This document shows, piece after piece, positions 1 through 12,433 of a stretch of DNA of 12,433 bases. The notes beneath the pieces were generated by a model. It ran no database searches. It had not been told where the DNA came from and saw only the letters and a program-made list of their open reading frames with translations. The translations under genes were made by a program, and so were the position numbers. This DNA is from a virus (Duplodnaviria; Heunggongvirae; Uroviricota; Caudoviricetes): the IMG/VR virus record IMGVR_UViG_2526164630_000020; one strand, given 5' to 3'. The stretch's first letter is position 1. Each line of letters opens with the position of its first letter.

Positions 1-274
1 TACTGGCGACTCGTATGACAACGCGATGGCGGAGAGCATCAATGGTCTTTACAAAGCGGAGGTAATACACCGTAAGAGCTGGAAAAACCGTGCAGAAGTG
101 GAACTGGCCACACTCACGTGGGTGGACTGGTATAACAATCGACGATTGCTGGAAAGGCTGGGCCATATTCCTCCGGCAGAAGCAGAAAAAGCTTATTATG
201 CTTCCATCGGAAACGATGATCTGGCAGCCTGAGTTCACAGATAAAACACTCTCCAGGAAACCCGGGGCGGTTCA
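1..274 (+). mobile_element. Right end of an IS3-family insertion sequence (partial; element continues upstream of the window). Terminal inverted repeat ends ...GGTTCA at about 274.
   Basis: Plus-strand frame 2 reads ...TGDSYDNAMAESINGLYKAEVIHRKSW..., the conserved C-terminal region of IS3-family DDE transposases (orfB). Stop codon at 230-232. The next 42 bp end in ...CA-3' (minus strand reads TGAACCGCCCCGGGTTTCCTGGAG...), the TG...CA terminus typical of IS3-family elements, and from memory resembling IS629/IS1203-type ends. Homology to lambda L starts exactly at 275. Confidence 0.7.
2..232 (+). CDS. IS3-family transposase OrfB, C-terminal fragment (5' end lies outside the window)
   Basis: Open frame from position 2 with no upstream stop in the window; YDNAMAES motif and C-terminal region typical of IS3-family orfB; stop TGA at 230-232. 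The listed ORF 26..232 is the Met-initiated sub-part. Confidence 0.8.
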   Translation, partial: TGDSYDNAMAESINGLYKAEVIHRKSWKNRAEVELATLTWVDWYNNRRLLERLGHIPPAEAEKAYYASIGNDDLAA

Positions 275-930
275 CACCATGCCGCGCATCTCACACCCGC
301 GCATGCACTTGCTGCATCTGTCCTTACGGATATCGGTGGTGGGTTTATCGAACTCATCCGCCACCGCAGGACCGTTATACCCGCATTCATCTCCCCGGTA
401 ATACCACATACAGGTGTTCGCCAGCATGATGCGACCGGGAAACAGCGCTCCGTCCGTCTCCGTCGGTGTTGCCAGCACAAACGAGGCTGTCATGGCCGTC
501 AGCTCTGACATCTGCTCCACCACCCAGCGGTCGCTCAGCTCCTGCTCCGGGTCCGCTTCCGGATTGCCCGCCACAAAATTCACCGCATCCAGAAAACGGG
601 CATACACCCGGCGGCGGACCACCGTGGCCCCCACCAGGCTCTGCAGGTCCTCCGCCATTCCCGGTGACCAGACCGAACAGAATTGGACACCGTCAGCGAC
701 GGGCGGGCACTGCTGCCCTTCCCGTTCATCTCAAAGCCACTGCCGTCAATCGGGTATGCCTGATATTGCCGCCCCTGCCAGGTAACCGCCTCCCCTTTTT
801 CATTCAGCTCATTGCAGAAAAAATACCGCTCACCACCCTGTACCGTCAGGTCGATTTCCCAGAGTACCACCCGCGGTGACTGCTCTGATTTAACCGACTC
901 GTTCAGACTTTCTTCGTGAATATCCTGCAT
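275..930 (-). pseudogene. L: Tail tip assembly protein L-like gene, disrupted by two +1 frameshifts (near 681-684 and 658-662) and 3'-truncated by the IS insertion
   Basis: ORF 580..930 (MQDIHEESLNE...VVLWEIDLT...GERYFFCNE...) matches the lambda L N-terminus through ...LTVSN. ORF 272..658 (MAEDLQSLVGATVVRR...GRIMLANTC...RGDECGY...CSKC) matches the rest of L in another frame. The intermediate frame between them reads LFGLVTG (lambda LYGMVTG). About 14 C-terminal codons are missing, and the stop at 272-274 is the IS terminal TGA. Confidence 0.75.
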
Positions 931-1259
931 CAGTTCACCACCTGCTTAAACTCCGCGCTGAATTCAACCCGCAGCATGCGAACCCGTGATGACCAGGCGG
1001 CACAGGTCACCTTTATCTGCCGCCAGGCATAAGGCGGTGTCCACAGAAACGCCTTCCAGCCACCGTGCTCTGCCAGGAATGCCTCCAGATGTCGGGCCTC
1101 CTCCCGGGTCACGGAAAGCGTCACACGGTATGTTTTCAGGTCAGCATTCAGCCCCGCCGCCATACGCTGCGAATACCCGTCACCAAAACGCACTTCACGC
1201 ACCGATGGCTGCGAGTTCACCTCCATATCCGGCTTCACTTTCCAGCGAAATGTTTTCAT
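930..1259 (-). CDS. M: Minor tail protein M
   Basis: 109 aa, MKTFRWKVKP...GGWKAFLWTPPYAWRQIKVTCAAWSSRVRMLRVEFSAEFKQVVN; near-colinear with lambda gpM (109 aa). Stop overlaps the L start. Confidence 0.9.
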   Translation of the reverse strand: MKTFRWKVKPDMEVNSQPSVREVRFGDGYSQRMAAGLNADLKTYRVTLSVTREEARHLEAFLAEHGGWKAFLWTPPYAWRQIKVTCAAWSSRVRMLRVEFSAEFKQVVN

Positions 1260-3835
1260 CGCCTGCCTCCGGAAAAGACGCCGCCATCACGCATCTGCGC
1301 CTGAATCTCATCCTGCGCCCCCTTGCGGGCCATGTCATACACCGCCTTCATCAGCTGCGGCCCCGCCTGTCCGTTGGTGCCGTCGTTCTGAATCACCACG
1401 TGATTGTTCTGATTAAAACTAATGCCTTCCGCCCGCCGCATCTGCGCCGGACTTCCGGCACCGCCCACATAACCACCTTCCGCATACCCGCGCATCAGAC
1501 GATACAGGTTGCCGACGCCAATCCGGCTGGTTGCCTCCTTCGTGAAGACAAACTCCCCGCGGTGGACAATACCGGCAGGTTCGTATTTGCCACCGGTTCC
1601 CGTAAATCCTCCGGTCGCGAAATGGAAGTTCGCCGCCGCAGCCTGAATGGCCGTCCCCGTGGAGGCAGACGCCCCACCACCGAAAGCACCACCCATGGCG
1701 CTGCCAATACTCCCGACAATCCCCACCATGGCCTGCTTCAGAAAAATCTCTGTCAGCATGGAGAGCACAGAACGGGTGAAACCACGCCAGCTCTGTTCGC
1801 TGCCGGTCAGCATCGCTGCCATATTCTGTGCAATACCGTCAAAGGTCTGCGTGGCCACGCTTTTAACCTGCGAAAAACTGTCCGTCGCACTTTCTGCCCA
1901 CTCGCCCCAGCCGGACTTCAGACCGGCCATCCAGCTTCCACGAAGCTGCTCCTCCGCAGACCAGGTGTTCTTCAGTGCAGATGTGGCCTTCGCCAGCGCA
2001 TCCGGATTATCACCGTACACGTCACGAAGGCGCTGCGATTCCGACTCCCGCTGTGCCTGACGGTCCGTCAGCCCCCGGGCTTTTGCGCTGATTGCAGCCT
2101 GCTTCGCACTCTGCTGCTGTTCAAACCGCACAGCCTGATTTGCCAGCTCATTCAGCCGTTTCTGGTATTCAACCTTGTCACCCAGGTCAGCCAGCTGGCG
2201 TTTGTACTCCAGCGTCTCTTGCTCATGGGCCAGCAGGGATTTCTCCTGTGCAGACAGCTGGCGACGTTGCGCCGCCTCCTCCAGTACCGCGAACTGACTC
2301 TCCGCCTTCCACAAATCCCGGCGCTGCTGGCTGATTTTCTCATTCGCTCCGCTGTGCTTCTCCAGCGTCCGGAGCTCGGTTTCAAGCGCCAGCAGCGCCG
2401 CATGCGTCAGGTCTTCCTGACGCTCACCGGCTGACACTTTAACACCTGACGACTTCGGCTTTTTCAGCGTCGATTCATAATCCTTTTTCGCCGCCGCCAT
2501 CAGCGTGTTGTAATCCGCCTGCAGGATTTTCCCGTCTTTCAGGGCCTTATTCAGCTCTTCCTGCCGGTTAGTATATTTCTCCAGCGGCGTCAGCAGACGC
2601 TCATACGCCTTCTGCGCCTCTCCGGTATACTTCAGCTGTGATGCGTCCCGTTCGGCCCGGTCCCTGGTAGCCAGTTCACCGGCTTTTTCCATATCCGACT
2701 GCAGCGTGGCCGCTGCCAGCCCCAGACGGGCATTTTCCCGGTCATCCCATGCGCCCTGCAGGTTGGCACGGAAAGAGGAGGTCTTTCCCCGGCGCTGGCT
2801 CCGGCTCTGGTACCACTGCCATTTTTTATCCGCCTCATCGAATGCCTTCTGCGCACTGGCAAGCATATCCGCTGAGGATTCCGGACGACCGATATCCAGA
2901 ATGGCATCCCACATCGATTTGAATGCCTTCCCTGTTTTATCCGCCCAGGTCTCCAGTGTCCCCATGTTTTCTTTCAGGCGACGGGTCTGCTCATCAAAGC
3001 CTTTCGTGGCGATATCGTTCGCCGCCTGTAAGGCCCCGGCCTCATCACCGGAACGCTGCAGCTGCGCAACATACGCAATCTGCTCTGCCGTCACGTTACG
3101 GAACTGGCGCGCCATCGCCATCAGCCCCGACGTCGGGTCGGTGGTCAGTTTTCCGAAAGCCTCTGCAACCTTGTCCACCTCCACACCGGATGCAGAAGCA
3201 AAACGCGCGACACTCTGGTTGATGGCATCAAACTGTGCACCACCACGCACACCGACATTCACCAGGGCTGCCAGTGACTCACTCGCCTGGTTAAACGTCA
3301 GCCCTGCGGCCTGTCCGGCTCTGGAGAGCGTCAGCATGCGATCGGCAGTCAGTCCGGACTGATTACCGGAAAGAACCAGGGTTTTATTAAACGCTGAAAG
3401 CGTGGAATCCCCCTGGTACCAGGCGTACGCCAGCGCACCTGTCGCCACCGCCAGCGAGGTGACCCCGACCATCGGCAGGGTGATCGTACCGGCAAGTCCC
3501 CTGAACATGGGGATCATCCCGCCGAAGGAGTCCTTCACCTGACCGCCCTGTTGCAGCAGGATCAGCCAGGGATTCTGACCACCGGCAAGCTGCGTGGCGA
3601 TATCCGTAAACTGTGCGGGCAGGGTTCGCATGGCCGCTTTATACTGCCCGACGGAAATCCCGGCTTTTTGTGCAGCCAGCGCCTGACGACTCAGGTTCTG
3701 CTCAACGACACCGACGGTTTTTCTGGCGTCAGTCTCCAGTCCGGAAAAATGACGCCTTACCCGGCTCATCTGCTCATCGAAACGGACCGCATCCAGACTC
3801 AGGTCAATAACAAGATCACCAACCGGCTGGGACAT
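1256..3835 (-). CDS. H: Tail tape measure protein (lambda gpH-like)
   Basis: 859 aa single open frame, MSQPVGDLVIDLSLDAVRFDEQ... to ...AVYDMARKGAQDEIQAQMRDGGVFSGGRR; colinear with lambda H (about 853 aa). GGAGG Shine-Dalgarno about 8 nt upstream of the ATG at 3835. Confidence 0.9.
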   Translation of the reverse strand: MSQPVGDLVIDLSLDAVRFDEQMSRVRRHFSGLETDARKTVGVVEQNLSRQALAAQKAGISVGQYKAAMRTLPAQFTDIATQLAGGQNPWLILLQQGGQVKDSFGGMIPMFRGLAGTITLPMVGVTSLAVATGALAYAWYQGDSTLSAFNKTLVLSGNQSGLTADRMLTLSRAGQAAGLTFNQASESLAALVNVGVRGGAQFDAINQSVARFASASGVEVDKVAEAFGKLTTDPTSGLMAMARQFRNVTAEQIAYVAQLQRSGDEAGALQAANDIATKGFDEQTRRLKENMGTLETWADKTGKAFKSMWDAILDIGRPESSADMLASAQKAFDEADKKWQWYQSRSQRRGKTSSFRANLQGAWDDRENARLGLAAATLQSDMEKAGELATRDRAERDASQLKYTGEAQKAYERLLTPLEKYTNRQEELNKALKDGKILQADYNTLMAAAKKDYESTLKKPKSSGVKVSAGERQEDLTHAALLALETELRTLEKHSGANEKISQQRRDLWKAESQFAVLEEAAQRRQLSAQEKSLLAHEQETLEYKRQLADLGDKVEYQKRLNELANQAVRFEQQQSAKQAAISAKARGLTDRQAQRESESQRLRDVYGDNPDALAKATSALKNTWSAEEQLRGSWMAGLKSGWGEWAESATDSFSQVKSVATQTFDGIAQNMAAMLTGSEQSWRGFTRSVLSMLTEIFLKQAMVGIVGSIGSAMGGAFGGGASASTGTAIQAAAANFHFATGGFTGTGGKYEPAGIVHRGEFVFTKEATSRIGVGNLYRLMRGYAEGGYVGGAGSPAQMRRAEGISFNQNNHVVIQNDGTNGQAGPQLMKAVYDMARKGAQDEIQAQMRDGGVFSGGRR

Positions 3836-4687
3836 ATCTCACACCTCCCGGAATCCCCGCTGAAGCCATCATTAATGCGACATCATCCTCGCTGACATCC
3901 GCCACATCCGCAGACGATAAAATCTCACGCCCTCCGTCCCCACCAAACCGTACGCCTCCGGCAAGTCCTGCCGCTTTCTGCATCAGCATTTTTTCCTCAT
4001 CCGGCATCTCCGTCTGCGCTTTCTCACGCCGGGGGGCAAGCAGACTGAAATCAGAGGGATGCATATCCGGATCGCAAAAAAACAGGCTGAGTACGGCGTA
4101 CGTCAGCCCGGAAAAATGCATATCCAGTTGGGTATCGTGAAAATAATGCGTACGGTAAAAATGTCGCCAGTCGGCATATTCGGTGGATGTCATCCCGGCA
4201 AGCATGGCGCGCCAGTCAGGCCTCCCCATCTCACGCGCCAGTCTGAGGGCAAAATTCAGCTCGCCGTCGAAGACTTTCCCGCAGAAAAATCATCATCAGT
4301 CAGCGCGTTATATTTCGCCACTTCGGTGCTGTCAGTATCCGCATGAACAGCCCCGCTCATCCCGGACAGACGCAACACCACATCTTCCGCCCGGGCAATG
4401 GCATCCGCAGGCCAGGTGGTGAGCACTTCCTGTTCGATCTGCATCACAGCCTCATTCATTGACGGTGATGCCGTTTTCTGCGGATGGTTATGCCACAGGG
4501 ACATCGCCACCAGAAACGCGCCGGTTCTGACGAGATCTTCCACGCTTACCTGCAGGTTGCCGCTGGCTTCCGCCTCTTCTGCCCGCCGTTTCAGGAGGGC
4601 AAGATGCTCAATACGCTGCAGCGCAGACAATTCGGAAAGCGTGACAGACACACCGTTATATTCAAATTGTTCTGTTTTCAGAAACAT
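3816..4687 (-). CDS. T: Tail assembly chaperone G-T fusion, made by -1 programmed ribosomal frameshift at the slippery heptamer G GGA AAG (4280..4274)
   Basis: Minus-strand GGGAAAG lies at 4280-4274 with GGA and AAG as zero-frame codons of G (Gly-Lys). Reading on in the -1 frame gives GKVFDGELNFALRLAREMGRPDW..., colinear with lambda gpGT, and this frame continues as the listed ORF 3816..4229. Confidence 0.85.
4256..4687 (-). CDS. G: Tail assembly chaperone G
   Basis: 143 aa, MFLKTEQFEYNGVSVTLSELSALQRIEHLALLKR...; matches lambda gpG, ending ...SAGKSSTAS. GGAGG Shine-Dalgarno upstream. Confidence 0.9.
   Translation of the reverse strand: MFLKTEQFEYNGVSVTLSELSALQRIEHLALLKRRAEEAEASGNLQVSVEDLVRTGAFLVAMSLWHNHPQKTASPSMNEAVMQIEQEVLTTWPADAIARAEDVVLRLSGMSGAVHADTDSTEVAKYNALTDDDFSAGKSSTAS
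4274..4280 (-). promoter_or_regulatory. Slippery sequence G GGA AAG for -1 translational frameshifting (G to G-T)
   Basis: Heptamer in the correct phase relative to G; the downstream -1 frame encodes the T homolog. Confidence 0.85.
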
Positions 4688-4700
4688 GTATGACCTCCGT

Positions 4701-5453
4701 TTACCCTGCAGCGCCTGCTTCAGTAACGGTGACTTCAGCTACCGTGGCAAACTGACCATTACCGGAAATCACAGGGATCTGCACCTTACCTGTCGCCACG
4801 CCGTTTACCGTAATTGTCATATCTTTCACACTAATGGTGGCTTTCGACGGATCGGCGGAAACCACTCTGAACGTCTTGTCGGTTGCACTTTCCGGCTCAA
4901 AAGAAACCGTCAGGGTGGTTGTTTTCCCTTTTGCCACCGTACCGGATGTCGGCGTCACCTTAATCGCAGTGACCGGCGTAATTTTGCTGCGTTCTTCCGC
5001 TACAGAAGGTTTGCCCACGTTGGTCACTTTCACCGTGCGGGTGATCACTTCTTTCGCCGTCACGGCCTTACCGATACTGCTGACCCAGCCACGAAACACA
5101 TCCACCGTGCCGTTCGGAAAACGGATTTTATAGGCCCGCACATCCCCGCTTTCAAACCAGCCTATAAGCCCTTTCTGACCTTCTTCTCCCGGTTTCCAGG
5201 CCAGCGTAAAACTGGTATCTCCTGCAGACTTCTGCCCCTGCCCGGTCGCGGTCCAGTCCGCGTCTTCATCATCCAGGTAGTTATCATCGTAGGGTTCTGC
5301 CGTCATCTCGCCCGGCGTCAGATCCTTCACCTTAGCCAGTCGCAGCCAGTCATCGTCTGACAACGGGTTTGCATAGGCGTCACCCTGACCGTTATAAACC
5401 CACAGGGTGGTACCGGCACCTTTTACCGGCTCAAGGGGATTTGGTGTTGACAT
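4701..5453 (-). CDS. V: Major tail protein V
   Basis: 250 aa, [36 protein letters not shown]...; matches lambda gpV throughout, including the C-terminal Ig-like region. Confidence 0.9.
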
Positions 5454-5460
5454 ATCGTCC

Positions 5461-5856
5461 TCACATCTCGTATGTAATGGAATAAGTCAGATCCGCAGAA
5501 CTCCATAACGCCATATCGTCATCACGACGATACTCATAGCCCTGCGTAACCATCGTCGTAATCAGGTCTGCCAGTGCCGGGATCGCAGTCATCGCCGGAT
5601 AAATCCGGCTTTCCATCCACGAATCCAGCTCCGAATCCGGTACCTGTGCTGGTAAAAACACCTCAATATGCAGTGTGGCCCGCCAGGTATCTGCATCCAG
5701 CTCTTCACCGGTATACTCTGCATCCGTCAGATAAACCGCGACGGCCGGAAAATCCTCTTCGTCAAAAACAACGGGGCGACCATCAAACAGCGTCGCCCCG
5801 TGTTCATGCAGCTCCAGTGCATCCAGCACTGCAGCACGGATATCAGTATGTTTCAT
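5461..5856 (-). CDS. U: Tail terminator protein U
   Basis: 131 aa, [54 protein letters not shown]...LTYSITYEM; near-identical in length and sequence to lambda gpU. Confidence 0.9.
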
Positions 5857-6386
5857 CGTTTTATCGCAATCCTCAGTTGTTGTTTCAGCGCATATGCCAG
5901 TTCTCCGGGCAGGCGTTCACGCCGGATACGGTCAACATTCTCATCAAACGCCTGTTTCAGTGGGGCCGCCATCGGGATTTTCACCACATCAATGGGGTAA
6001 CGGTTTTTCCCGGCCACACGCTGCATGACATGCCAGCGACCATTTTTTAATCGCTGAATAAATGCCCGCTGATAACGATGCTGACCGGCTTTGAGTATGC
6101 TGTCCGGACGACGCCCCGGCATCCTGATCCCCAGCTTAATCACCGGGAGATCACCGCGGTTAACGATAATTCTGGCATTCGGATTTCTGACCGTGGCCCG
6201 TTTCAGTCTGGACCGTTCCTTTACCAGTTTCCGGTTCACCCTGGTTTCCCGGGCAACCTGTGACGAAGACTGATTAATCGCCGTTGTGGCCACGCGGTTA
6301 ATGGCCATTGCTGAAGCCGCCGGAATGGCGTTTTTACGAACCCGGCTCAGATTTTCAATCGTCTGATCAAGCCCTTTTATCGCCAT
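5853..6386 (-). CDS. Z: Tail completion protein Z
   Basis: 177 aa, MAIKGLDQTIENLSRVRKNAIPAASAMAINRVATTAINQSSSQVARE...KNGRWHVMQRVAGKNRYPIDVVKIPMA...; matches lambda gpZ, with a shorter basic central segment. Confidence 0.88.
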   Translation of the reverse strand: MAIKGLDQTIENLSRVRKNAIPAASAMAINRVATTAINQSSSQVARETRVNRKLVKERSRLKRATVRNPNARIIVNRGDLPVIKLGIRMPGRRPDSILKAGQHRYQRAFIQRLKNGRWHVMQRVAGKNRYPIDVVKIPMAAPLKQAFDENVDRIRRERLPGELAYALKQQLRIAIKR

Positions 6387-6400
6387 AATTCACCCTGCGT

Positions 6401-6754
6401 TTATCGTCGCCGGTTAACGGCGGGTGGTTGACCACGGTTGAGCCAGAGATAACAGCTGCCCCCGTCATCCGGAGAAACACGATCCACCCAGAATATCTCA
6501 CCATTAATGGTCAGCGTGTCACCACGCCGCACGGCACGAACCGTATCCGTCCGCACAAATAATGACGGGCTGCTTCCTTCAATACGGACCCCGCCACCGG
6601 CAAACCCCAGCGACTCCGGATCGTCAAAAACCCCCTGAACTTCGCTGCCACACTGTGCCCCCGAGGTGAACTGCGCACAGAGCCCCATCACTTCAACAAT
6701 CGTGCTGTCCACCCCGGCAAGGGCAGCATCAAAGGCATTCTGAAAATCACGCAT
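6401..6754 (-). CDS. FII: Head-tail joining protein FII
   Basis: ORF 6401..6790; the part from MRDFQNAFDAALAGVD...GVFDDPES...GVRIEGSSPSLFVRTDTVRAVRRGDTLTI...FWVDRVSPDDGGSCYLWL...PPAVNRRR matches lambda gpFII (117 aa). Start chosen at the Met at 6754 (the 13th codon of the listed ORF) by alignment; the start at 6790 cannot be excluded. Confidence 0.8.
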   Translation of the reverse strand: MRDFQNAFDAALAGVDSTIVEVMGLCAQFTSGAQCGSEVQGVFDDPESLGFAGGGVRIEGSSPSLFVRTDTVRAVRRGDTLTINGEIFWVDRVSPDDGGSCYLWLNRGQPPAVNRRR

Positions 6755-7121
6755 AAACAGCCATTCCGCCATCAACGTGTGTTTTTGCATCTGAGGACAT
6801 AATCAGAATCACCCGACCAACATCCGCAATCTCAACGGATTCCCCTGTTTCACCATCAATGCCACAGAGATGGAGGCAGGTCAGAACTCTGATGCGCGTT
6901 AACGCACCGGATGTATCCTCACGAACATCATGAGCCGCGGTTTCCCGCTCCCGGATCACCGTATCCCCAACCTGAACATCCTCGCCGGATGACTGTATTT
7001 CCTCTTCCCATTCCGCCACCCGCTGCGCTATCTCTGCGGCACTCCCGGATATATCCGGCTCACGCCCCAGAATCAGGGCCAGTTCATCAAGCCGTTTCAG
7101 ATTTTGCTCTTTCGTTGCCAT
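6747..7121 (-). CDS. FI: DNA-packaging / head completion protein FI
   Basis: ORF 6747..7169; start chosen at ATG 7121 (MATKEQNLKRLDELALILG...), preceded by an AGGGGG Shine-Dalgarno and matching the lambda gpFI N-terminus. The longer form would start at a GTG 3 nt after the E stop with no ribosome-binding site. Confidence 0.75.
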   Translation of the reverse strand: MATKEQNLKRLDELALILGREPDISGSAAEIAQRVAEWEEEIQSSGEDVQVGDTVIRERETAAHDVREDTSGALTRIRVLTCLHLCGIDGETGESVEIADVGRVILIMSSDAKTHVDGGMAVYA

Positions 7122-7135
7122 ATCAGCCCCCTGTG

Positions 7136-7164
7136 AAAAAAGACACGGGGGCATTTCGCCCCCG
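7136..7164 (-). terminator. Candidate intrinsic terminator or attenuator just after the major capsid gene E
   Basis: Minus strand reads CGGGGGC-GAAAT-GCCCCCG (7-bp perfect GC stem 7164-7158 / 7152-7146, 5-nt loop) followed by TGTC and a T6 run (7141-7136). Lies between the E stop (7173-7175) and the FI start (7121). Confidence 0.5.
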
Positions 7165-7172
7165 CTCACGGA

Positions 7173-8201
7173 TTATTTCACCTGTACCACCACAAACTCA
7201 TCCGGGTCCGGCAACACCATCAGCGGCGCGGACTGCGTCATGGTAAATTCACGGGCGGGATCCCCCACCGTCAGCCAGTGTTTCGGATAACGGGAAGAGG
7301 CCACCACACCTTCGGACAACGCCTGCGCATCCTGAATGGCACCGTAACAACGGATCCCATCTGCAGCAGTATTCCCCAGAACCAGCATGCCCTCCGGCAG
7401 ATAACGTTTTTCGATACCGTCTTCTGCTATATAAGACGTTTTCGCCACCACAATGGCCAGATCGCCGTAATACCCCTTGAAGGACACCACTGCGCCCAGA
7501 TCTTTCACTGCCGTTTCGAGTTGAGAATTTGAACCGCGACGGGTATCCAGTTTTTCGCGGAACAGCTTAAAACCATTCAGAAGACGCCAGACGGTACCGT
7601 CCATAATGGCAATATTCACAAGACCGCTGGCCTGGTCGCAGTAGAGGTCAAGATCATGTGTAGGATCGAACGTGTCACGATCCTGTTTTGACCACTCCTT
7701 ACCACTACCCTGAGTGATGTTATTCTTCGTCGACCTGCCAAAATCGACCTCAATTTTCTCGAACTGGTCTCCTTCCATCGTATATTTGCCATACAACACA
7801 GCATTTACCGCCTGTATTTCTTCCACCTGGACAATCGCGTGCTCTTCCTGTTTGAGGTTATCGGTAATGATACGCAGACGGCGGTAAGCCGGATCGTTCA
7901 GTTGAGCCGGATCTTCACCAGGAAGGCGCTCAACCGCCTGCTGGTAATTAAATTCGTGTTTCGGCTTGACGTAGCCCGGACGTAACACGCGGGTTTCACC
8001 ACCACGATGACGCAGCACTTTTCCTTCAACAACCGGGGAGACATAGGCCGCCACCGGCGTTTTTCCGGTAATTTTGTCCAGCATCACCTCTTCGGTATGG
8101 AAATTCACCGTACGGCGGAAAAACAGCTCCAGAAACAGCGCACGAAATTTCACTTTTTGTTCGGTATAACCGAGTAACTGGCGGGTCGTAAACAATCCCA
8201 T
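7173..8201 (-). CDS. E: Major capsid protein E
   Basis: 342 aa, MGLFTTRQLLGYTEQKVKF...GYVKPKHEF...YTMEGDQFEKIEVDFGRS...RGSNSQLETAVKDLG...DPAREFTMTQSAPLMVLPDPDEFVVVQVK; colinear with lambda gpE (341 aa). Confidence 0.92.
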   Translation of the reverse strand: MGLFTTRQLLGYTEQKVKFRALFLELFFRRTVNFHTEEVMLDKITGKTPVAAYVSPVVEGKVLRHRGGETRVLRPGYVKPKHEFNYQQAVERLPGEDPAQLNDPAYRRLRIITDNLKQEEHAIVQVEEIQAVNAVLYGKYTMEGDQFEKIEVDFGRSTKNNITQGSGKEWSKQDRDTFDPTHDLDLYCDQASGLVNIAIMDGTVWRLLNGFKLFREKLDTRRGSNSQLETAVKDLGAVVSFKGYYGDLAIVVAKTSYIAEDGIEKRYLPEGMLVLGNTAADGIRCYGAIQDAQALSEGVVASSRYPKHWLTVGDPAREFTMTQSAPLMVLPDPDEFVVVQVK

Positions 8202-8229
8202 AAATCAGTTCCTTTCATTCAGAAATCAG

Positions 8230-8607
8230 TCAGGCCACCGCGGTGGCCTGATAACGTGTTACGGCAGCGCCGCGTGACTCAGGGCACTGCCGGCAAAGGT
8301 CATTTGCCTTTTTGTGTTCATCCACACTTTCAGGCCAGCGGATTGCCTCCGTCGCAAAGGTCCCCGACTTGTAATAGGTCAGTACCGTCTCTGTGCCTTC
8401 AAGCGGCAGTACCAGTATGCCAACTGCACTACCGGCTTTCTGTCCGTCCCAGACCACCAGTTTCCCGCTGGCTTCATCCAGCATCAGGGGCGTCAGTGCC
8501 GGTGTTGCCGAGGAAATCCCGCTGCTGCCTGTGGCGGTATGAGCCGGATCATTACCGGCAAAAATACGTACTTCCGCACGCTGTTCAGTGATGGTTTTCG
8601 TTACCAT
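8230..8607 (-). CDS. D: Head decoration protein D; C-terminus probably altered by a +1 frameshift at an A5 run (plus-strand T5 at 8309-8313)
   Basis: 125 aa; NDPAHTAT...TPLMLDEASGKLVVWDG...AVGILV...TVLTYYKSGTF matches lambda gpD. After ...DEHKK the listed frame diverges, while the adjacent frame reads RQMTFAGSALSHAALP-stop (lambda ...TAFAGTAISIV), which would end at about 8259. Confidence 0.8.
   Translation of the reverse strand: MVTKTITEQRAEVRIFAGNDPAHTATGSSGISSATPALTPLMLDEASGKLVVWDGQKAGSAVGILVLPLEGTETVLTYYKSGTFATEAIRWPESVDEHKKANDLCRQCPESRGAAVTRYQATAVA
8232..8249. repeat. 18-bp perfect palindrome AGGCCACCGCGGTGGCCT at the D/E junction
   Basis: Self-complementary over 9+9 bp with a central CCGCGG; sits at or just past the D 3' end, about 30 nt upstream of the E start. 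Confidence 0.6.
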
Positions 8608-8643
8608 ATTGTAAAAACCTCCTGTTGATGATCAGCACTGACT

Positions 8644-9246
8644 TCATGGCATGGCCATGAGCATTTTCACGTCCGCATCACCGTCTGCTGACGTCTGTGG
8701 CACGCCACCCTGTACCGCTGCCGGTGAATGGTTCGCCATGATGCGTTCAAACAGGGCGGTTGTGGATGCAGAGACCGGTTCTGCCTTACCTGATCCCGCA
8801 GCCAGCACAGCCCGGGCGCTCTCCACAGTCATTCCCGGGCAGGCAGCCAGTTGTTCAGCCTGCGCCTCAGCCCCTTTTGCCTCATCCAGTGCCATGATCT
8901 GATCACGGAGTGAGGGTCCGGCATCCGCCTGCGGTGAAGCAGCCAGGATCGGGCGGGCTTTTTCCACCGTCATCTCCGGCATCGCCGCCAGCGTTGCCGC
9001 CAGTTGTTCACGACCGTTCGCTTCTTCACACGCCATAATGCGATCGGCTTCACTCTGCGTGGATGCCACCGGCTGCTGCGGTGCCGCCGCGGCCAGAATC
9101 GCCCGGGCCTGTGCAACGCTCATGCCCTGTTGTCCTGCCAGCATCGTGGCAAGCTGTTCACGTCCTTTCGCTTCCTGGCATGTCAGGATCCCCATCACTC
9201 GCTGGTTCTCCTGCGCGGCGGCTTCCGTTGCAGTTAATTGCGGCAT
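8644..9246 (-). CDS. nu3: Scaffolding protein Nu3-like, nested in frame within the 3' part of C
   Basis: Internal ATG at 9246-9244 (MPQLTATEAAAQENQRVMGILTCQEAKGRE...) preceded by a perfect AGGAGG Shine-Dalgarno (minus strand ...GAGGAGGCACT-ATG). In lambda, Nu3 is translated in the C frame from an internal start and shares the C-terminus. Confidence 0.6.
   Translation of the reverse strand: MPQLTATEAAAQENQRVMGILTCQEAKGREQLATMLAGQQGMSVAQARAILAAAAPQQPVASTQSEADRIMACEEANGREQLAATLAAMPEMTVEKARPILAASPQADAGPSLRDQIMALDEAKGAEAQAEQLAACPGMTVESARAVLAAGSGKAEPVSASTTALFERIMANHSPAAVQGGVPQTSADGDADVKMLMAMP
8791..9201 (-). repeat. Three diverged tandem copies (about 150 bp each) of a scaffold-domain motif inside C/Nu3
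   Basis: Protein repeats RVMGILTCQEAKGREQLATMLAGQQGMSVAQARAILAAA / RIMACEEANGREQLAATLAAMPEMTVEKARPILAAS / IMALDEAKGAEAQAEQLAACPGMTVESARAVLAAG, then a partial RIMAN. Matching DNA repeats are visible, e.g. CTGTTCACG..CGCTTC at about 9005 and 9155. Confidence 0.7.
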
Positions 9247-10137
9247 AGTGCCTCCTCTGACATTACTGTTCAGCGCCGTGGCCATCACACTGATGGCATC
9301 CGACGCATTGACTAATTCATCCGCCAGCCCGGCCTCAATGCCGGACTGACCTTCAAAAACGGCGGCCTCTGTTCCCGTGACGGCATCAACAGACAGACCG
9401 GTAAACATCGCCACTTTTTCGGCAAACATCCGGCGCGCCGCATCAATGCGCTGCTGCATGTCCTGGCGAACCTCTGCCGGTAAGGCTTCAAACTGATTGC
9501 CATCCACCTTGTGCGCCCCTGAGTAAATCAGCGTGATATCCACACCGGCCTGCGCCAGATGACCGGCATAGCTGACATGGCTCATCATCACGCCAATGGA
9601 GCCGATACGGGATGTCTGGGTAACCAGCCGTCGGGAGCAGGCCGACGCCAGCAGCATGGCTGCAGAACAGGCCGTGTCATTGCACAGTGCCCAGACCGGC
9701 TTCTGCTGACGGAGGCGGTAAATCATGTCAGCGCAGTCAAACGCGCCGGCGGCCTGCCCGCCCGGACTGTCAATGTCCAGCAGTATGCCCCGCACCTGGC
9801 TATCTGCCATTGCCTGCTGAAGACAGGCGACAATGCCGTCATAGCCAGTCATTCCGGAAAATGGCCGCATCCCCCCAGCCGGTGCACCAGCGTGCCGGTC
9901 ACCGGCAGTACAGCAATACCGTTCACCACCCTGTAAACACGGGCCGGTCGTTTACCTCCGGCCATGTACTCGTCCGTTTCAGCCAGCATTCCGGGAGCAT
10001 CAAACTGTACCTGCTGTTGTGGTACCGAAAGACTTGCTGCCCCCATCTCGCGCCCGAGCGCGCAAAAGAAAACCCGCGCATAGGCGGGCTCCAGAAGCAG
10101 CGGTTCATTGAATGCTGCGGCAATAATGTGTGAAAGA

Positions 10138-11729
10138 TTACGTCTCACGGGGTGTTGTCTCCTCTTCCGGCCTGCGACTCTCCGCTATCTGCTGCTGATA
10201 CGCCTGCGCTATCCACACCGGACGTGAGAGTCCGGCTTTTTGCCGCTCTGCAGATTCCCTGACCTGCTGGCGGAAAATGTCCTGATAATCCTCGCCCATC
10301 AGCGCCAGCTCTTTCTCATACGTGCTCAGTCCGGCCTCAATGCGCATCACTGATTCCTGAACCTCCTTGAGCCCGTCAATGGCCATTCTTCCGGCACCAA
10401 TCCACTCAGCCCGTGACCAGGCTGATCGCGCCTGATAAAAATCAAAACGCGCCCGTGGCGGACGAATAATCCCCCGAAGAAGTGCCTCTTCCAGCCAGCA
10501 GGAAAACATCTGCGTGGCCAGCCGGGACGCAATAAATTTTCGCCGCCCCATAAGATAGCGCCACGACTCATTGGCGGATGCGCGGGCACTTGAATAACTG
10601 ACCTTCGAGTAATCACGGGACAACTGTTCGTAGGAAACGCCAAGACCGGCGGCGATATACCGCAGCAGCGCCTGTTCAAGCGCCGAAAATCCATTGTCTG
10701 AATCCTGCGCGGTCTGAAGTTTCAGATCATCACCGGGGAAAAGGTGCGGAATTTTGACACCGCCCAGCGTCACGCTATTCGTGTCATACCAGGTGGAGAA
10801 CTTATCCAGAATATTAATAAGCGGATTATCCTTCTGCCCCTGCGGCGCACCGGCGATATATTCAAAGGCCTTTTCGGTATCAAGGTCACTTTCAATCGTC
10901 GCTGCATACATCGCCTTCACTATGGCCGACTGAAGCTGTGTTGCCTGCAGGGAATCGAGCATCTTCAGCCGTTCCATGACGCTGTAAAACTGATTGGCCC
11001 CACGGGTCTGCCCGTCCTCCACCGGCTCGAAAATATGCAGCATGGCCGGACGCCCGGTGGGAAGTTCACGCGGGATCCGTTCCCATCGTCCACTCCCGGA
11101 GAACGGAAAATCATCCTCACAGATATGGTACGCAACGGCACGACCATATCGATCGACCTCCACACCGGCCCGCAGAAAACGGTTCCCCATACCGTGTCCT
11201 GGCGTGTCCACCCGTTTCGGACTCACGGCTTTAAAACGCGTACGAAACAGTTGCGTGCTCTCCGTATCCCAGACCGGCTGCACAAAGATTTCGCCGTTAA
11301 ACGCATGAACGCCCACACCTTCACGGATAAATTCCGTAAACGTGCGTTTCCCTTCCACGTCGATCTCGCCAGACATCCCTTCTGCGTATTCCGACCAGGC
11401 CGCCTCCACCTCATCGACAAAACTTTTTGCCGCAGTCTCCCGCATCCCCAGCCAGCGCCAGTTCGGACGGTAGCTGATCAGAAACATATGCCCGACAATA
11501 TGATCCTTATGCAGGGCCACCGCATTAGCCGCTATCCCGTTATTGCGCACCAGATCATCTGCCCGGGCATTCCCCAGACGCAACGCAGGCAGCAGGGCTG
11601 CATCGGCACTCTGCGCCGGTGGCAACCACTCCGCCATTTGCCCGCCAAATCCTGCGCGCCCCCGTTGTAGCTGAGACTCTCACGAAGCGGAACGCCGTTC
11701 ACATCAATCAGGACAGGCGTTCGTTTCAT
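10138..11729 (-). pseudogene. B: Portal protein B, N-terminal about 25 codons in a different frame from the rest (apparent 1-bp deletion near a C5 run at 11659-11663)
   Basis: ORF 11532..11729 begins MKRTPVLIDVNGVPLRESLSYNGG (lambda gpB MKTPTIPTLLGPDGMTSLREYAGYHGGG). Main ORF 10138..11637 reads upstream in its own frame as GFGGQMAEWLPPAQSADAALLP (lambda GFGGQLRSWNPPSESVDAALLP) and continues colinear with gpB (...FEPVEDGQTRGANQFYSVME...AAGLGVSYEQLSR...). The ATG at 11729 overlaps the W stop (ATGA). Confidence 0.8.
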
Positions 11730-11932
11730 AACCTCACTCCCAGCGGACGACGGCGACGTCGGGTTGTCCCCAGTACCGACTCCGCATCATTGATCGCCCG
11801 GTTAAGCTCATCCAGAGAAGCCGCCGTATATTCAATTCTGCGACCATCTTTCTGGACAGACACCACCCGTTTACCGGTTAATAAATCAAGGCGCGCCTGA
11901 CGCAGCGCCTGCAGTTCAGCGACTGTAACCAT
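11726..11932 (-). CDS. W: Head-tail connector / head completion protein W
   Basis: 68 aa, MVTVAELQALRQARLDLLTGKRVVSVQKDGRRIEYTAASLDELNRAINDAESVLGTTRRRRRPLGVRL; same length as and colinear with lambda gpW. Confidence 0.88.
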   Translation of the reverse strand: MVTVAELQALRQARLDLLTGKRVVSVQKDGRRIEYTAASLDELNRAINDAESVLGTTRRRRRPLGVRL

Positions 11933-12433
11933 TCACTCCTCCGGACAGCTTCGCTGCCAGTTCTTTCAGGGTTGGCCGGGTCGTCTCTTCTTCCCGGGAT
12001 TTTGCCAGTACAGCCAGATCAAGCTGCCAGCGTTGCACGGACACACGTAATGCCGCGTAGGCATACACCAGGCAGTCCAGCGCTTCGTTACGCCGCTTTT
12101 TGTTATCCCACAGCAGACGCATCTTTCCTTTTTCCCACTTCTCCACAAGCTCTTCCGCGACCAGTTGCTGCGCCTCTGTCTGCGAAAAAATCTCCGGATC
12201 ATCAGGAAACGGATGGCATACGACGTGGCTTCATCCGCAGGCGTGGGATCGGCTTTCATACGGGCATAGAGAATTTCTTTTGCGGTGTCCGTTCCCACTT
12301 CACACAGATACACGCCCCGCTGATTGCGGGTTTTCGGCATGGTGATCACCGGCTTGCCATAGACAGATGCGCCTTTTACCGGCAGCACCCGGAAAACACC
12401 GTGTTTTTTTGATCTCTGATAACAATTTCACCA
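11916..12433 (-). pseudogene. A: Terminase large subunit (A-like), C-terminal region; partial (5' end outside the window) and frame-disrupted near 12215-12232, possibly again near the T7 run at 12404-12410
   Basis: One frame reads ...VFRVLPVKGASVYGKPVITMPKTRNQRGVYLCEVGTDTAKEILYARM...; the adjacent frame reads HPFPDDPEIFSQTEAQQLVAEELVEKWEKGKMRLLWDNKKRRNEALDCLVYAYAALRVSVQRWQLDL...LSGGVNGYSR, matching the lambda gpA C-terminus. The first frame has a stop at 12428-12430 just upstream of VFRVLPVKG. Confidence 0.75.

What the first reader, a model, noticed from the sequence alone, without database searches (positions are those of the whole stretch)
8230..12433. Cluster of frame disruptions in conserved head genes (A, B, C, D), several at homopolymer runs
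Alignment to the lambda proteins requires a frame switch in A (about 12215-12232, possibly also at the T7 run 12404-12410), in B (C5 run 11659-11663), in C (C6 run 9871-9876) and near the D 3' end (T5 run 8309-8313). With the two in L, that is at least six disruptions in 12 kb, while the neighbouring E, H, V, U, Z, M and W are intact. This means either a decaying cryptic prophage or indel errors in the sequence; the homopolymer bias favours sequencing or assembly error for some of them. None sits in a recognisable slippery-site context apart from the known G-T site.
Basis: partly seen in the sequence, partly recalled or inferred. Interest (0 to 1): 0.5.

Follow-up and report, generated by a model that had tools for sequence, protein, structure and literature searches.

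The report
Assembly-error frameshifts in prophage head genes
The broken reading frames in these phage head and tail genes are real in the deposited sequence, but they are most likely consensus errors made when a 2012 draft assembly merged reads from several near-identical prophages, so the finding is ordinary.

Summary
The window is the whole 12,433-bp contig AIGX01000083.1 of the draft genome of E. coli DEC11C (O45:H2). It carries a phage-21-type head module and a lambda-type tail module on the minus strand. Undoing the seven bases restores full-length D, C, B and A at 99.4-100% amino-acid identity, with no other lesion. Five of the six indels that could be tested are seen in no other sequence or almost none. 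The C6 variant recurs in 11 of 1,797 finished-genome records. All seven lie in blocks where co-resident prophage copies of a close relative are about 98-99% alike, and none lies in the identical or the strongly divergent blocks. Three sit exactly on paralog differences and read as blends of the two run lengths. The two L indels sit at the end of a 385-bp exact repeat that joins two different prophages. Best reading: collapsed-repeat consensus artefacts (about 0.72). Real decay is a minority alternative. Low interest.

The parts
1..274 (+). Right end of an IS3-family insertion sequence (3' end of the transposase gene, 1-232), abutting the truncated 3' end of gene L. This end of the contig is a multi-copy repeat.
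   Evidence: bases 1-300 match many E. coli genomes as 'IS3 family transposase | minor tail protein L', and 7 records match at 100%; the gene call carries rve_3/rve_2 Pfam domains.
275..659 (-). 3' part of gene L. In the closest finished genome, both the lambda/21-like prophage (L003) and a different, HK97-head prophage (L004) match this stretch at every base except the private A403. L004 is the copy that carries the IS. This 385-bp shared repeat is the probable site of a chimeric join.
   Evidence: alignment of the window with L003, L004 and L026. After 660 the window follows L003, not L004.
658..662 (-). L indel 1. The window reads TTCCC, L003 and L027 read TTCC, and L004 reads TCCC. The extra base is a blend of the two paralog run lengths, at the first site where the paralogs differ.
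   Evidence: distance 0 to a paralog polymorphism. The 116-aa product is found only in this contig.
681..682 (-). L indel 2. The window reads AA where relatives have a single A. It lies 21 nt from indel 1 and between paralog differences at 675 and 685.
275..930 (-). Gene L (minor tail protein). It is truncated by the IS and split into 116-aa and 100-aa calls by the two insertions.
8259..8607 (-). Gene D / shp (head decoration protein, 115 aa in relatives). Here the ORF is 8230-8607 (125 aa), because the last 13 residues are replaced by a 23-residue out-of-frame tail.
   Evidence: Pfam HDPD.
8300..8300 (-). D indel: an inserted T (A on the sense strand) in non-run context, GG^T^CATTT. It is not in the T5 run 8309-8313.
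   Evidence: The 125-aa product occurs on one contig only among about 15 billion proteins. It lies 1-2 nt from sites that vary among haplotypes.
8644..10148 (-). Gene C (S49 prohead protease/scaffold, 501 aa in relatives, with nested Nu3-like scaffold). It is split into 99-aa and 408-aa ORFs.
9871..9876 (-). C indel. The window has a C6 run where paralog L003 has C7 and paralog L027 has A+C6. The window (no A, C6) is one base short and reads as a blend of the two.
   Evidence: The C6 variant also occurs in 11 of 1797 finished-genome records and in 9 other loci fetched, on several backgrounds.
10138..11729 (-). Gene B (portal, 530 aa in relatives). It is split into a 65-aa N-terminal ORF and a 499-aa ORF.
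11656..11658 (-). B indel. The window reads GCG where relatives have GCCG (CC reduced to C). It lies 2 nt from the C5 run, which is itself unchanged.
   Evidence: No exact match in 1735 finished-genome records. It is adjacent to a common C/T polymorphism.
11726..11932 (-). Gene W (68 aa), intact.
11916..12433 (-). 3' part of gene A (terminase large subunit, C-terminal 172 aa). It is read in three frames because of two deletions. The contig ends inside the gene.
12207..12209 (-). A indel 1. The window has A3 where relatives have A4.
   Evidence: It is shared with one of 1852 finished-genome records (SJ7), there in a different, truly degraded prophage.
12421..12422 (-). A indel 2. The window reads GATAAC, paralog L003 reads GATAGAC and paralog L027 reads GATAAAC. 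The indel sits on a paralog difference, 12 nt from the contig end. The T7 run 12404-12410 is unchanged.

Best explanation
The seven frame disruptions are errors of the deposited consensus, not features of the DNA.

The contig comes from a 2012 draft assembly of E. coli DEC11C. STEC-type strains of this lineage carry several lambdoid prophages whose morphogenesis genes are identical in some stretches and 98-99% identical in others. The inference is that reads from two or three such copies were piled into one contig. Where the copies are identical, nothing goes wrong. Where they are very different, reads separate. Where they differ by scattered single bases, the consensus caller meets conflicting run lengths and emits a sequence one base too long or too short.

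The L end of the contig is probably a false join. It links the IS-interrupted L gene of one prophage to the tail genes of another, across a 385-bp exact repeat, and the two L indels lie at the edge of that repeat.

Shown here: the indels, their privacy, the clean repair, and their placement relative to paralog differences in a close relative.

Inferred: that DEC11C has the same paralogs, that reads were mixed, and that the platform was indel-prone. My recollection is 454 pyrosequencing, which I could not verify.
For: 1. The source is a draft contig of DEC11C.
2. Against the closest intact relative there are 7 one-base indels but only 40 substitutions.
3. In the head region most substitutions are alleles shared with other haplotypes. 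Only 2-3 are private, against 4 private indels there. Natural decay should give roughly ten substitutions per indel (my own knowledge of E. coli mutation spectra).
4. Repairing the 7 bases restores D 115/115 aa, C 501 aa at 99.8%, B 530 aa at 99.4% and the A C-terminus of 172 aa at 100%, with no other stop.
5. Privacy of the indels: the D and L products occur in this contig only; the B variant is in 0 of 1735 finished-genome records; the A12207 variant is in 1 of 1852.
6. The closest finished genome has a second lambda/21-like prophage (L027). It is identical to the first over window 348-6754, about 80% identical over 6755-8004, and differs at about 80 scattered sites over 8005-12433. All five head indels lie in the last block, and none lies in the other two.
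7. Three indels sit exactly on paralog differences and equal a mix of the two run lengths: 660 (TTCC and TCCC give TTCCC), 9870 (C7 and A+C6 give C6), and 12421 (AGA and AAA give AA). The permutation test gives P(3 or more of 7) of about 0.01.
8. Four of the 5 head indels touch a common polymorphic site, against a 10% background.
9. The IS-L junction is 100% identical to that of a different prophage in 7 related genomes. The window switches to the lambda/21-type sequence exactly where the first L indel lies.
10. The contig stops 47-80 nt before a cluster of paralog differences.
Against: - No reads, coverage or second sequence of DEC11C could be examined, and the sequencing platform is unverified (paper not held).
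- The paralogs used are from relatives, not from DEC11C itself.
- Three indels (8300, 11657, 12207-9) are not at differences between the two paralogs examined, and need a third copy or plain read error to explain them.
- Truly degraded prophages of this family, with frameshifted A, B and C, exist in finished genomes.
- The C6 and A3 variants occur elsewhere, so those two could be genuine slippage mutations.
- The block and site tests were devised after seeing the data.
Confidence: 0.72

Rival explanations
1. Real pseudogenisation. DEC11C carries a cryptic, IS-hit prophage whose L, D, C, B and A genes have each acquired genuine one-base frameshifts.
For: - An IS abuts L.
- Finished genomes contain prophages of this family with frameshifted portal, protease and terminase genes and large deletions (L026; SJ7 L028).
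- The A3 variant is shared with SJ7.
- The C6 variant recurs in 11 finished-genome records and in Logan/NCBI contigs.
Against: - Seven indels come with almost no private substitutions, and the repaired proteins are 99.4-100% identical to functional relatives.
- There are no nonsense mutations, multi-base indels or deletions.
- Five of the six indels that could be tested are seen in no other sequence or almost none.
- Genuine slippage has no reason to fall on sites where other prophage copies differ, or to reproduce blends of their run lengths.
- The truly degraded SJ7 copy is 95.8% identical to the window, with 214 mismatches for 15 gaps, which is a very different ratio.
Confidence: 0.14
2. 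Plain platform noise. These are random indel errors of an indel-prone read technology at low coverage, unrelated to repeats or paralogs.
For: - All events are plus or minus one base.
- Two are contractions of runs of 4 nt or more (C7, A4).
- One lies 12 nt from the contig end, where coverage is usually poor.
- The same C6 call appears in long-read assemblies that have other frameshifts nearby.
Against: - Only 1 of 58 runs of 5 nt or more is affected, and 4 of 7 events are in runs of 2 nt or less.
- There are no indels at all in 7.6 kb (682-8299), although that stretch holds 7 of the 10 runs of 6 nt or more.
- The events are significantly associated with paralog and haplotype differences.
Confidence: 0.12
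3. Functional recoding. The shifts are programmed ribosomal frameshift sites or phase-variable tracts that regulate head assembly.
For: - The region does contain one known recoding site, the G-T GGGAAAG heptamer at 4274-4280.
- The G7/C7 tract in gene C varies recurrently.
Against: - All close relatives, including phage 21 itself, encode A, B, C and D as single uninterrupted ORFs.
- No slippery heptamer is present at any of the seven sites.
- Six of the seven variants are unique or nearly so.
Confidence: 0.01

Closest known systems
Phage 21 (Jouyvirus) head morphogenesis module, and the matching prophages of STEC strains (O45:H2, O103:H2, O145)
   Same: Same gene order: A, W, B, C/Nu3, D(shp), E, FI, FII, followed by lambda-type Z, U, V, G, T, H, M, L. 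DNA identity is 97.7% to phage 21 and 99.5-99.6% to prophages of clonal-complex-20 genomes.
   Different: Seven one-base indels, an IS next to L, and a few substitution patches in H, V and U/Z.
Collapsed-repeat or mixed-paralog consensus errors in draft assemblies
   Same: The indels are confined to stretches where co-resident copies are about 98-99% alike. Blended run lengths occur at paralog differences. The contig is bounded by an IS on one side and by a cluster of paralog differences on the other.
   Different: Read depth and allele mixtures, the direct diagnostics of a collapsed repeat, could not be inspected. Three indels are not at differences between the two paralogs available.
Defective lambdoid prophages of EHEC (for example the O157:H7 prophage at L026, or the SJ7 prophage at L028)
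   Same: Frameshifted terminase, portal and protease genes, and IS elements inside the prophage.
   Different: Those prophages also show large deletions, multi-base indels and substantial sequence divergence. Their lesions are reproduced in related finished genomes. Here the lesions are private, are all one base long, and sit on an otherwise near-perfect background.

Membership tests
Phage 21 / lambda-like head-tail morphogenesis cluster | Conserved gene order and homology: terminase A, W, portal B, S49 protease/scaffold C, decoration protein D, capsid E, then tail genes including the G-T pair. | tested here: met
   Annotation of relatives and phage 21. Pfam families on the called genes. tblastn of relatives' proteins onto the window. 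GGGAAAG slippery site at 4274-4280.
Sequencing/assembly artefact | The variants are absent from independent sequences of the same element. | tested here: met
   The D and L products occur only in this contig. The B variant is in 0 of 1735 records and the A12207 variant in 1 of 1852. The exception is C6, in 11 of 1797 records. The 12421 site is too close to the contig end to test.
Sequencing/assembly artefact | Removing the variants restores intact genes with no other damage. | tested here: met
   D at 100%, C at 99.8%, B at 99.4% and the A C-terminus at 100% identity over full length, with no extra stops.
Sequencing/assembly artefact | The errors coincide with repeat structure, that is, with paralog differences and repeat edges. 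| tested here: met
   (P about 0.01). The paralogs were taken from the closest finished genome, not from DEC11C itself.
Sequencing/assembly artefact | Raw reads disagree with the consensus, or read depth shows a collapsed repeat. | not testable with these tools
   No reads or coverage data are available. The paper describing the sequencing is not held.
Pseudogenised cryptic prophage | The lesions are inherited, meaning shared by related genomes, and are accompanied by neutral substitutions, nonsense mutations or deletions. | tested here: not met
   The indels are private. There are 2-3 private substitutions in 4.4 kb. There are no other lesions. By contrast, the SJ7 prophage L028 shows what real decay looks like.
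Programmed ribosomal frameshift | A slippery motif at the shift site, and the two-frame arrangement conserved in relatives. | tested here: not met
   Relatives have single ORFs for A, B, C and D. The sequence contexts show no slippery heptamer.

The most novel reading that the evidence does not exclude
The G7 tract (C7 on the plus strand, window 9871-9876) in the prohead protease/scaffold gene C may be a genuine recurrent slippage hot spot. It would repeatedly switch off head maturation in phage-21-type prophages of E. coli. The one-base-shorter form is present on several haplotype backgrounds, in 11 of 1797 finished-genome records and in other loci fetched. On this reading the DEC11C C6 allele, and perhaps the A3 allele shared with SJ7, would be real. 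It would mark a common first step of prophage domestication.
Probability: 0.15. Interest if true: 0.3.

Novelty: not a real feature. Interest (0 to 1): 0.08.

Why it matters
The value is mainly as a caution. Draft assemblies of STEC-type genomes, which have many near-identical prophages, can show clusters of frameshifts in conserved phage genes. These mimic prophage decay and inflate pseudogene or 'defective prophage' counts. The placement test used here is a cheap way to flag such cases without reads. It asks whether indels fall only where co-resident copies are slightly different, and whether they blend neighbouring run lengths. Nothing here bears on phage biology, except the minor possibility that the G7 tract in gene C is a natural mutation hot spot.

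Tried and rejected
- I looked for the paper describing the DEC genomes to verify the sequencing platform. PMC3370608 is not held. Text searches for the accession, the strain and the method gave only the serotype, O45:H2, clonal complex 20.\n- I looked for an independent sequence of the same prophage through exact look-ups of the H and V proteins. H occurs in two other draft assemblies whose DNA is only 99.57% identical and does not reach L or the head genes. V is unique to this contig. So no second copy of the DEC11C element exists in the collections, and the absence of the variants from Logan assemblies is uninformative.\n- I tested whether the V-gene substitution patch (4716-4769) comes from a known paralog. 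No finished genome matches it better than 94.5% over 181 nt, so it is left unexplained.\n- I considered that the shared C6 allele indicates common descent. This was rejected because carriers are only 96-98.8% identical to the window and lie on different backgrounds.\n- I considered that the SJ7 prophage is the orthologue. This was rejected because it is 95.8% identical and shares only one of the seven indels.\n- I considered programmed frameshifting.
Full report
**What the window is.** All genes lie on the minus strand. An exact protein look-up shows that the window is the complete 12,433-bp contig AIGX01000083.1, reversed. It belongs to draft assembly GCA_000250155.2, Escherichia coli DEC11C, an O45:H2 strain of clonal complex 20.

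The head genes are of the phage 21 type, not the lambda type. Identity is 97.7% to phage 21 and 99.5-99.6% to prophages in finished O45:H2, O103:H2 and related genomes. In those relatives the genes are intact: A 642 aa, W 68, B 530, C 501 (with a nested scaffold gene), D/Shp 115 and E 342. They are followed by FI, FII, Z, U, V, G, T, H, M and L.

Bases 1-274 are the end of an IS3-family element.

**Checking the observation.** I aligned the window to the closest intact relative (NZ_CP027388.1, locus L003). Over 275-12433 there are exactly seven indels, all of one base, and 40 substitutions:

| Site | Gene | Change in the window |
|---|---|---|
| C660-662 | L | +1 (relatives have CC) |
| A681-682 | L | +1 (relatives have a single A) |
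| T8300 | D | +T |
| C run 9871-9876 | C | -1 (relatives have C7, or A+C6) |
| C11657 | B | -1 (relatives have CC) |
| A12207-12209 | A | -1 (relatives have A4) |
| between A12421 and A12422 | A | -1 (relatives have AGA or AAA) |

Each indel breaks a frame.

The C5 run at 11659-11663, the T5 run at 8309-8313 and the T7 run at 12404-12410 are unchanged. Of 58 runs of 5 nt or more, only one is hit.

**Are the indels shared or private?**
- The 125-aa D variant and both L fragments occur on this contig only, among about 15 billion proteins.
- An 81-mer across the B deletion has no exact match in 1,735 finished-genome records.
- The A3 variant at 12207-12209 has one exact match in 1,852 records. 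That match is strain SJ7, in a truly degraded prophage with large deletions and many other lesions. It is only 95.8% identical to the window and shares none of the other six indels.
- The C6 variant is the exception. It occurs exactly in 11 of 1,797 finished-genome records and in nine other loci fetched. These lie on different backgrounds (96-98.8% identical to the window). In some it appears with other frameshifts in the same assembly, and in others alone. So it is a recurrent event, either of mutation or of sequencing, and not a sign of common descent.
- The 12421 site is too close to the contig end to test this way.

**Is the background that of a decaying gene?** It is not. Undoing the seven single bases gives:
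- D at 115 of 115 residues identical to the relative;
- C of 501 aa at 99.8%;
- B of 530 aa at 99.4%;
- the 172 C-terminal residues of A at 100%;
- L residues 1-225, up to the IS.

There is no further stop codon. In the head region most substitutions against L003 are alleles present in other haplotypes, and only two or three are private. Four private indels against two or three private substitutions is the reverse of the natural ratio. From my own knowledge of E. coli mutation-accumulation work, substitutions outnumber small indels roughly ten to one. The SJ7 prophage shows 214 mismatches for 15 gaps.

**Where the indels fall.** The closest finished genome contains a second lambda/21-like prophage (L027) and a third, HK97-head prophage. 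The third prophage's L gene is the one next to the IS (L004). The comparison between L003 and L027 divides the window into three blocks:

| Window range | Genes | L003 vs L027 | Indels |
|---|---|---|---|
| 348-6754 | M to FII | identical | none between 682 and 6754 (the two L indels lie at 660-682; see below) |
| 6755-8004 | FI, E | about 80% identical | none |
| 8005-12433 | D to A | about 80 scattered single-base differences | all five head-gene indels |

The two L indels lie in the stretch where L004 begins to differ from L003.

Three indels sit exactly on a paralog difference, and each equals a blend of the two copies:
- At 658-662: TTCC (L003, L027) and TCCC (L004) give TTCCC in the window.
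- At 9870-9876: C7 (L003) and A+C6 (L027) give C6 without the A.
- At 12420-12422: AGA (L003) and AAA (L027) give AA.

A permutation test gives about 0.01 for three or more of seven random positions lying that close to a paralog difference. Against common polymorphisms among 22 haplotypes, four of the five head indels touch a variable site, where about 10% of positions do. My arithmetic puts that between 5e-4 and 3e-3.

At informative sites the window also alternates between L003 and L027 alleles over short distances. For example, sites 10396, 10408, 10450 and 10465 alternate L027, L003, L027, L003.

**The L end.** Apart from the private substitution at 403, window 275-659 is identical in L003 and L004. 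The IS-L junction (1-300) is 100% identical to the L004-type junction in seven related finished genomes, where it belongs to the HK97-head prophage. In those genomes the lambda/21-type prophages have an intact L followed by K. After 660 the window follows L003, not L004.

The simplest reading is that the assembler walked from the IS-bearing copy into the other prophage across the 385-bp repeat. Reads of both copies would then overlap in the 20-30 nt where the two L indels lie.

The other end of the contig stops 47-80 nt before a cluster of L003/L027 differences. This is what one expects of a contig that ends where merged copies can no longer be merged.

**Interpretation.** The best explanation is that the frame disruptions are consensus artefacts of a collapsed, multi-copy prophage region in a draft assembly. 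This accounts for several things at once:
- the indels are private;
- all are exactly one base long;
- the repaired genes are clean;
- the distribution follows the paralog blocks;
- run lengths are blended at paralog differences;
- the contig boundaries fall where they do.

Three things are not shown: that DEC11C has the same paralogs as its relatives, that reads were mixed, and which platform was used. I recall that the DEC genomes were sequenced by 454 pyrosequencing, whose flow-space consensus would produce exactly such blends. I could not verify this.

Three indels (8300, 11657, 12207-12209) are not at differences between the two paralogs I could fetch. They lie 1, 0 and 5 nt from sites that vary among other haplotypes. 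They would need a third copy or ordinary read error.

**Rivals.**
- Real decay is possible in principle, since finished EHEC genomes contain such prophages. It fits the substitution-poor background and the placement of the indels badly.
- Plain platform noise explains the size of the events. It does not explain their absence from 7.6 kb that holds most of the long runs, or their association with paralog differences.
- Programmed frameshifting is excluded, because relatives have single ORFs and the sites have no slippery motif.
- The C6 and A3 alleles could individually be genuine slippage mutations. I give that a modest probability.

**Verdict.** It is an ordinary artefact of a known kind, sitting on a well-known phage 21/lambda-type morphogenesis cluster. 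Interest is low.

Noticed in passing
window 1-659 (IS end 1-274; L repeat 275-659): The IS3-family IS/L junction is 100% identical to a junction in seven related finished genomes. There it belongs to a different, HK97-head prophage. Apart from the private A403, the next 385 bp are identical in both prophage types. The contig therefore probably joins two prophages falsely. The alternative is that DEC11C has a real recombinant between them.
   Followed up: partly
window 4716-4769 (3' end of gene V), also 4692: A dense patch of 10 substitutions in 54 nt relative to both paralogs of the closest genome. No finished E. coli genome matches 4640-4820 better than 94.5%. The intact 250-aa V protein is unique to this contig among about 15 billion proteins. 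The origin is unknown: it could be an unsampled V allele or a chimeric consensus.
   Followed up: partly
window 2891-3013 (gene H) and 5743-5913 (U/Z): Two further small clusters of substitutions private to the window relative to L003 and L027, including a three-base change at 3011-3013. The H protein is nevertheless found exactly in two other draft assemblies.
   Followed up: partly
window 9871-9876; loci L006-L015, L023, L031, L032: The G7/C7 tract in the prohead protease gene C is one base shorter in 11 of 1797 finished-genome records and in nine other loci fetched, on several haplotype backgrounds. In SF-468 it is the only lesion in the stretch examined (Z to the 3' part of A). In RM12275-C1 it appears together with other frameshifts. 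It is a hot spot for slippage, for sequencing error, or for both.
   Followed up: partly
L028 (NZ_CP044315.1 1185958-1212033, strain SJ7): A truly degraded prophage of the same family in a finished genome. It has deletions removing G to L and frameshifts in J, V, U, E, C, B, A, the lysozyme gene and the holin gene. It is the only other sequence with the A4-to-A3 change seen at window 12207-12209.
   Followed up: partly
window 12433 and the 80 nt beyond it in L003/L027: The contig ends inside gene A, 5 nt before a C6 run and 47-80 nt before a cluster of six differences between the two paralogous prophages. This is consistent with the assembly breaking where the merged copies diverge.
   Followed up: yes
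window 4274-4280 (minus strand): The lambda-type G-T slippery heptamer GGGAAAG is present near the end of G, with the T ORF (3816-4229) downstream. The one expected programmed frameshift of the region is intact.
   Followed up: yes
L003 vs L027 (NZ_CP027388.1): Two co-resident prophages of one finished genome are base-for-base identical over about 6.4 kb of tail genes (M to FII). They are about 80% identical in FI/E and about 98% identical in the head genes. This sharp mosaic is presumably the result of recombination between resident prophages.
   Followed up: no
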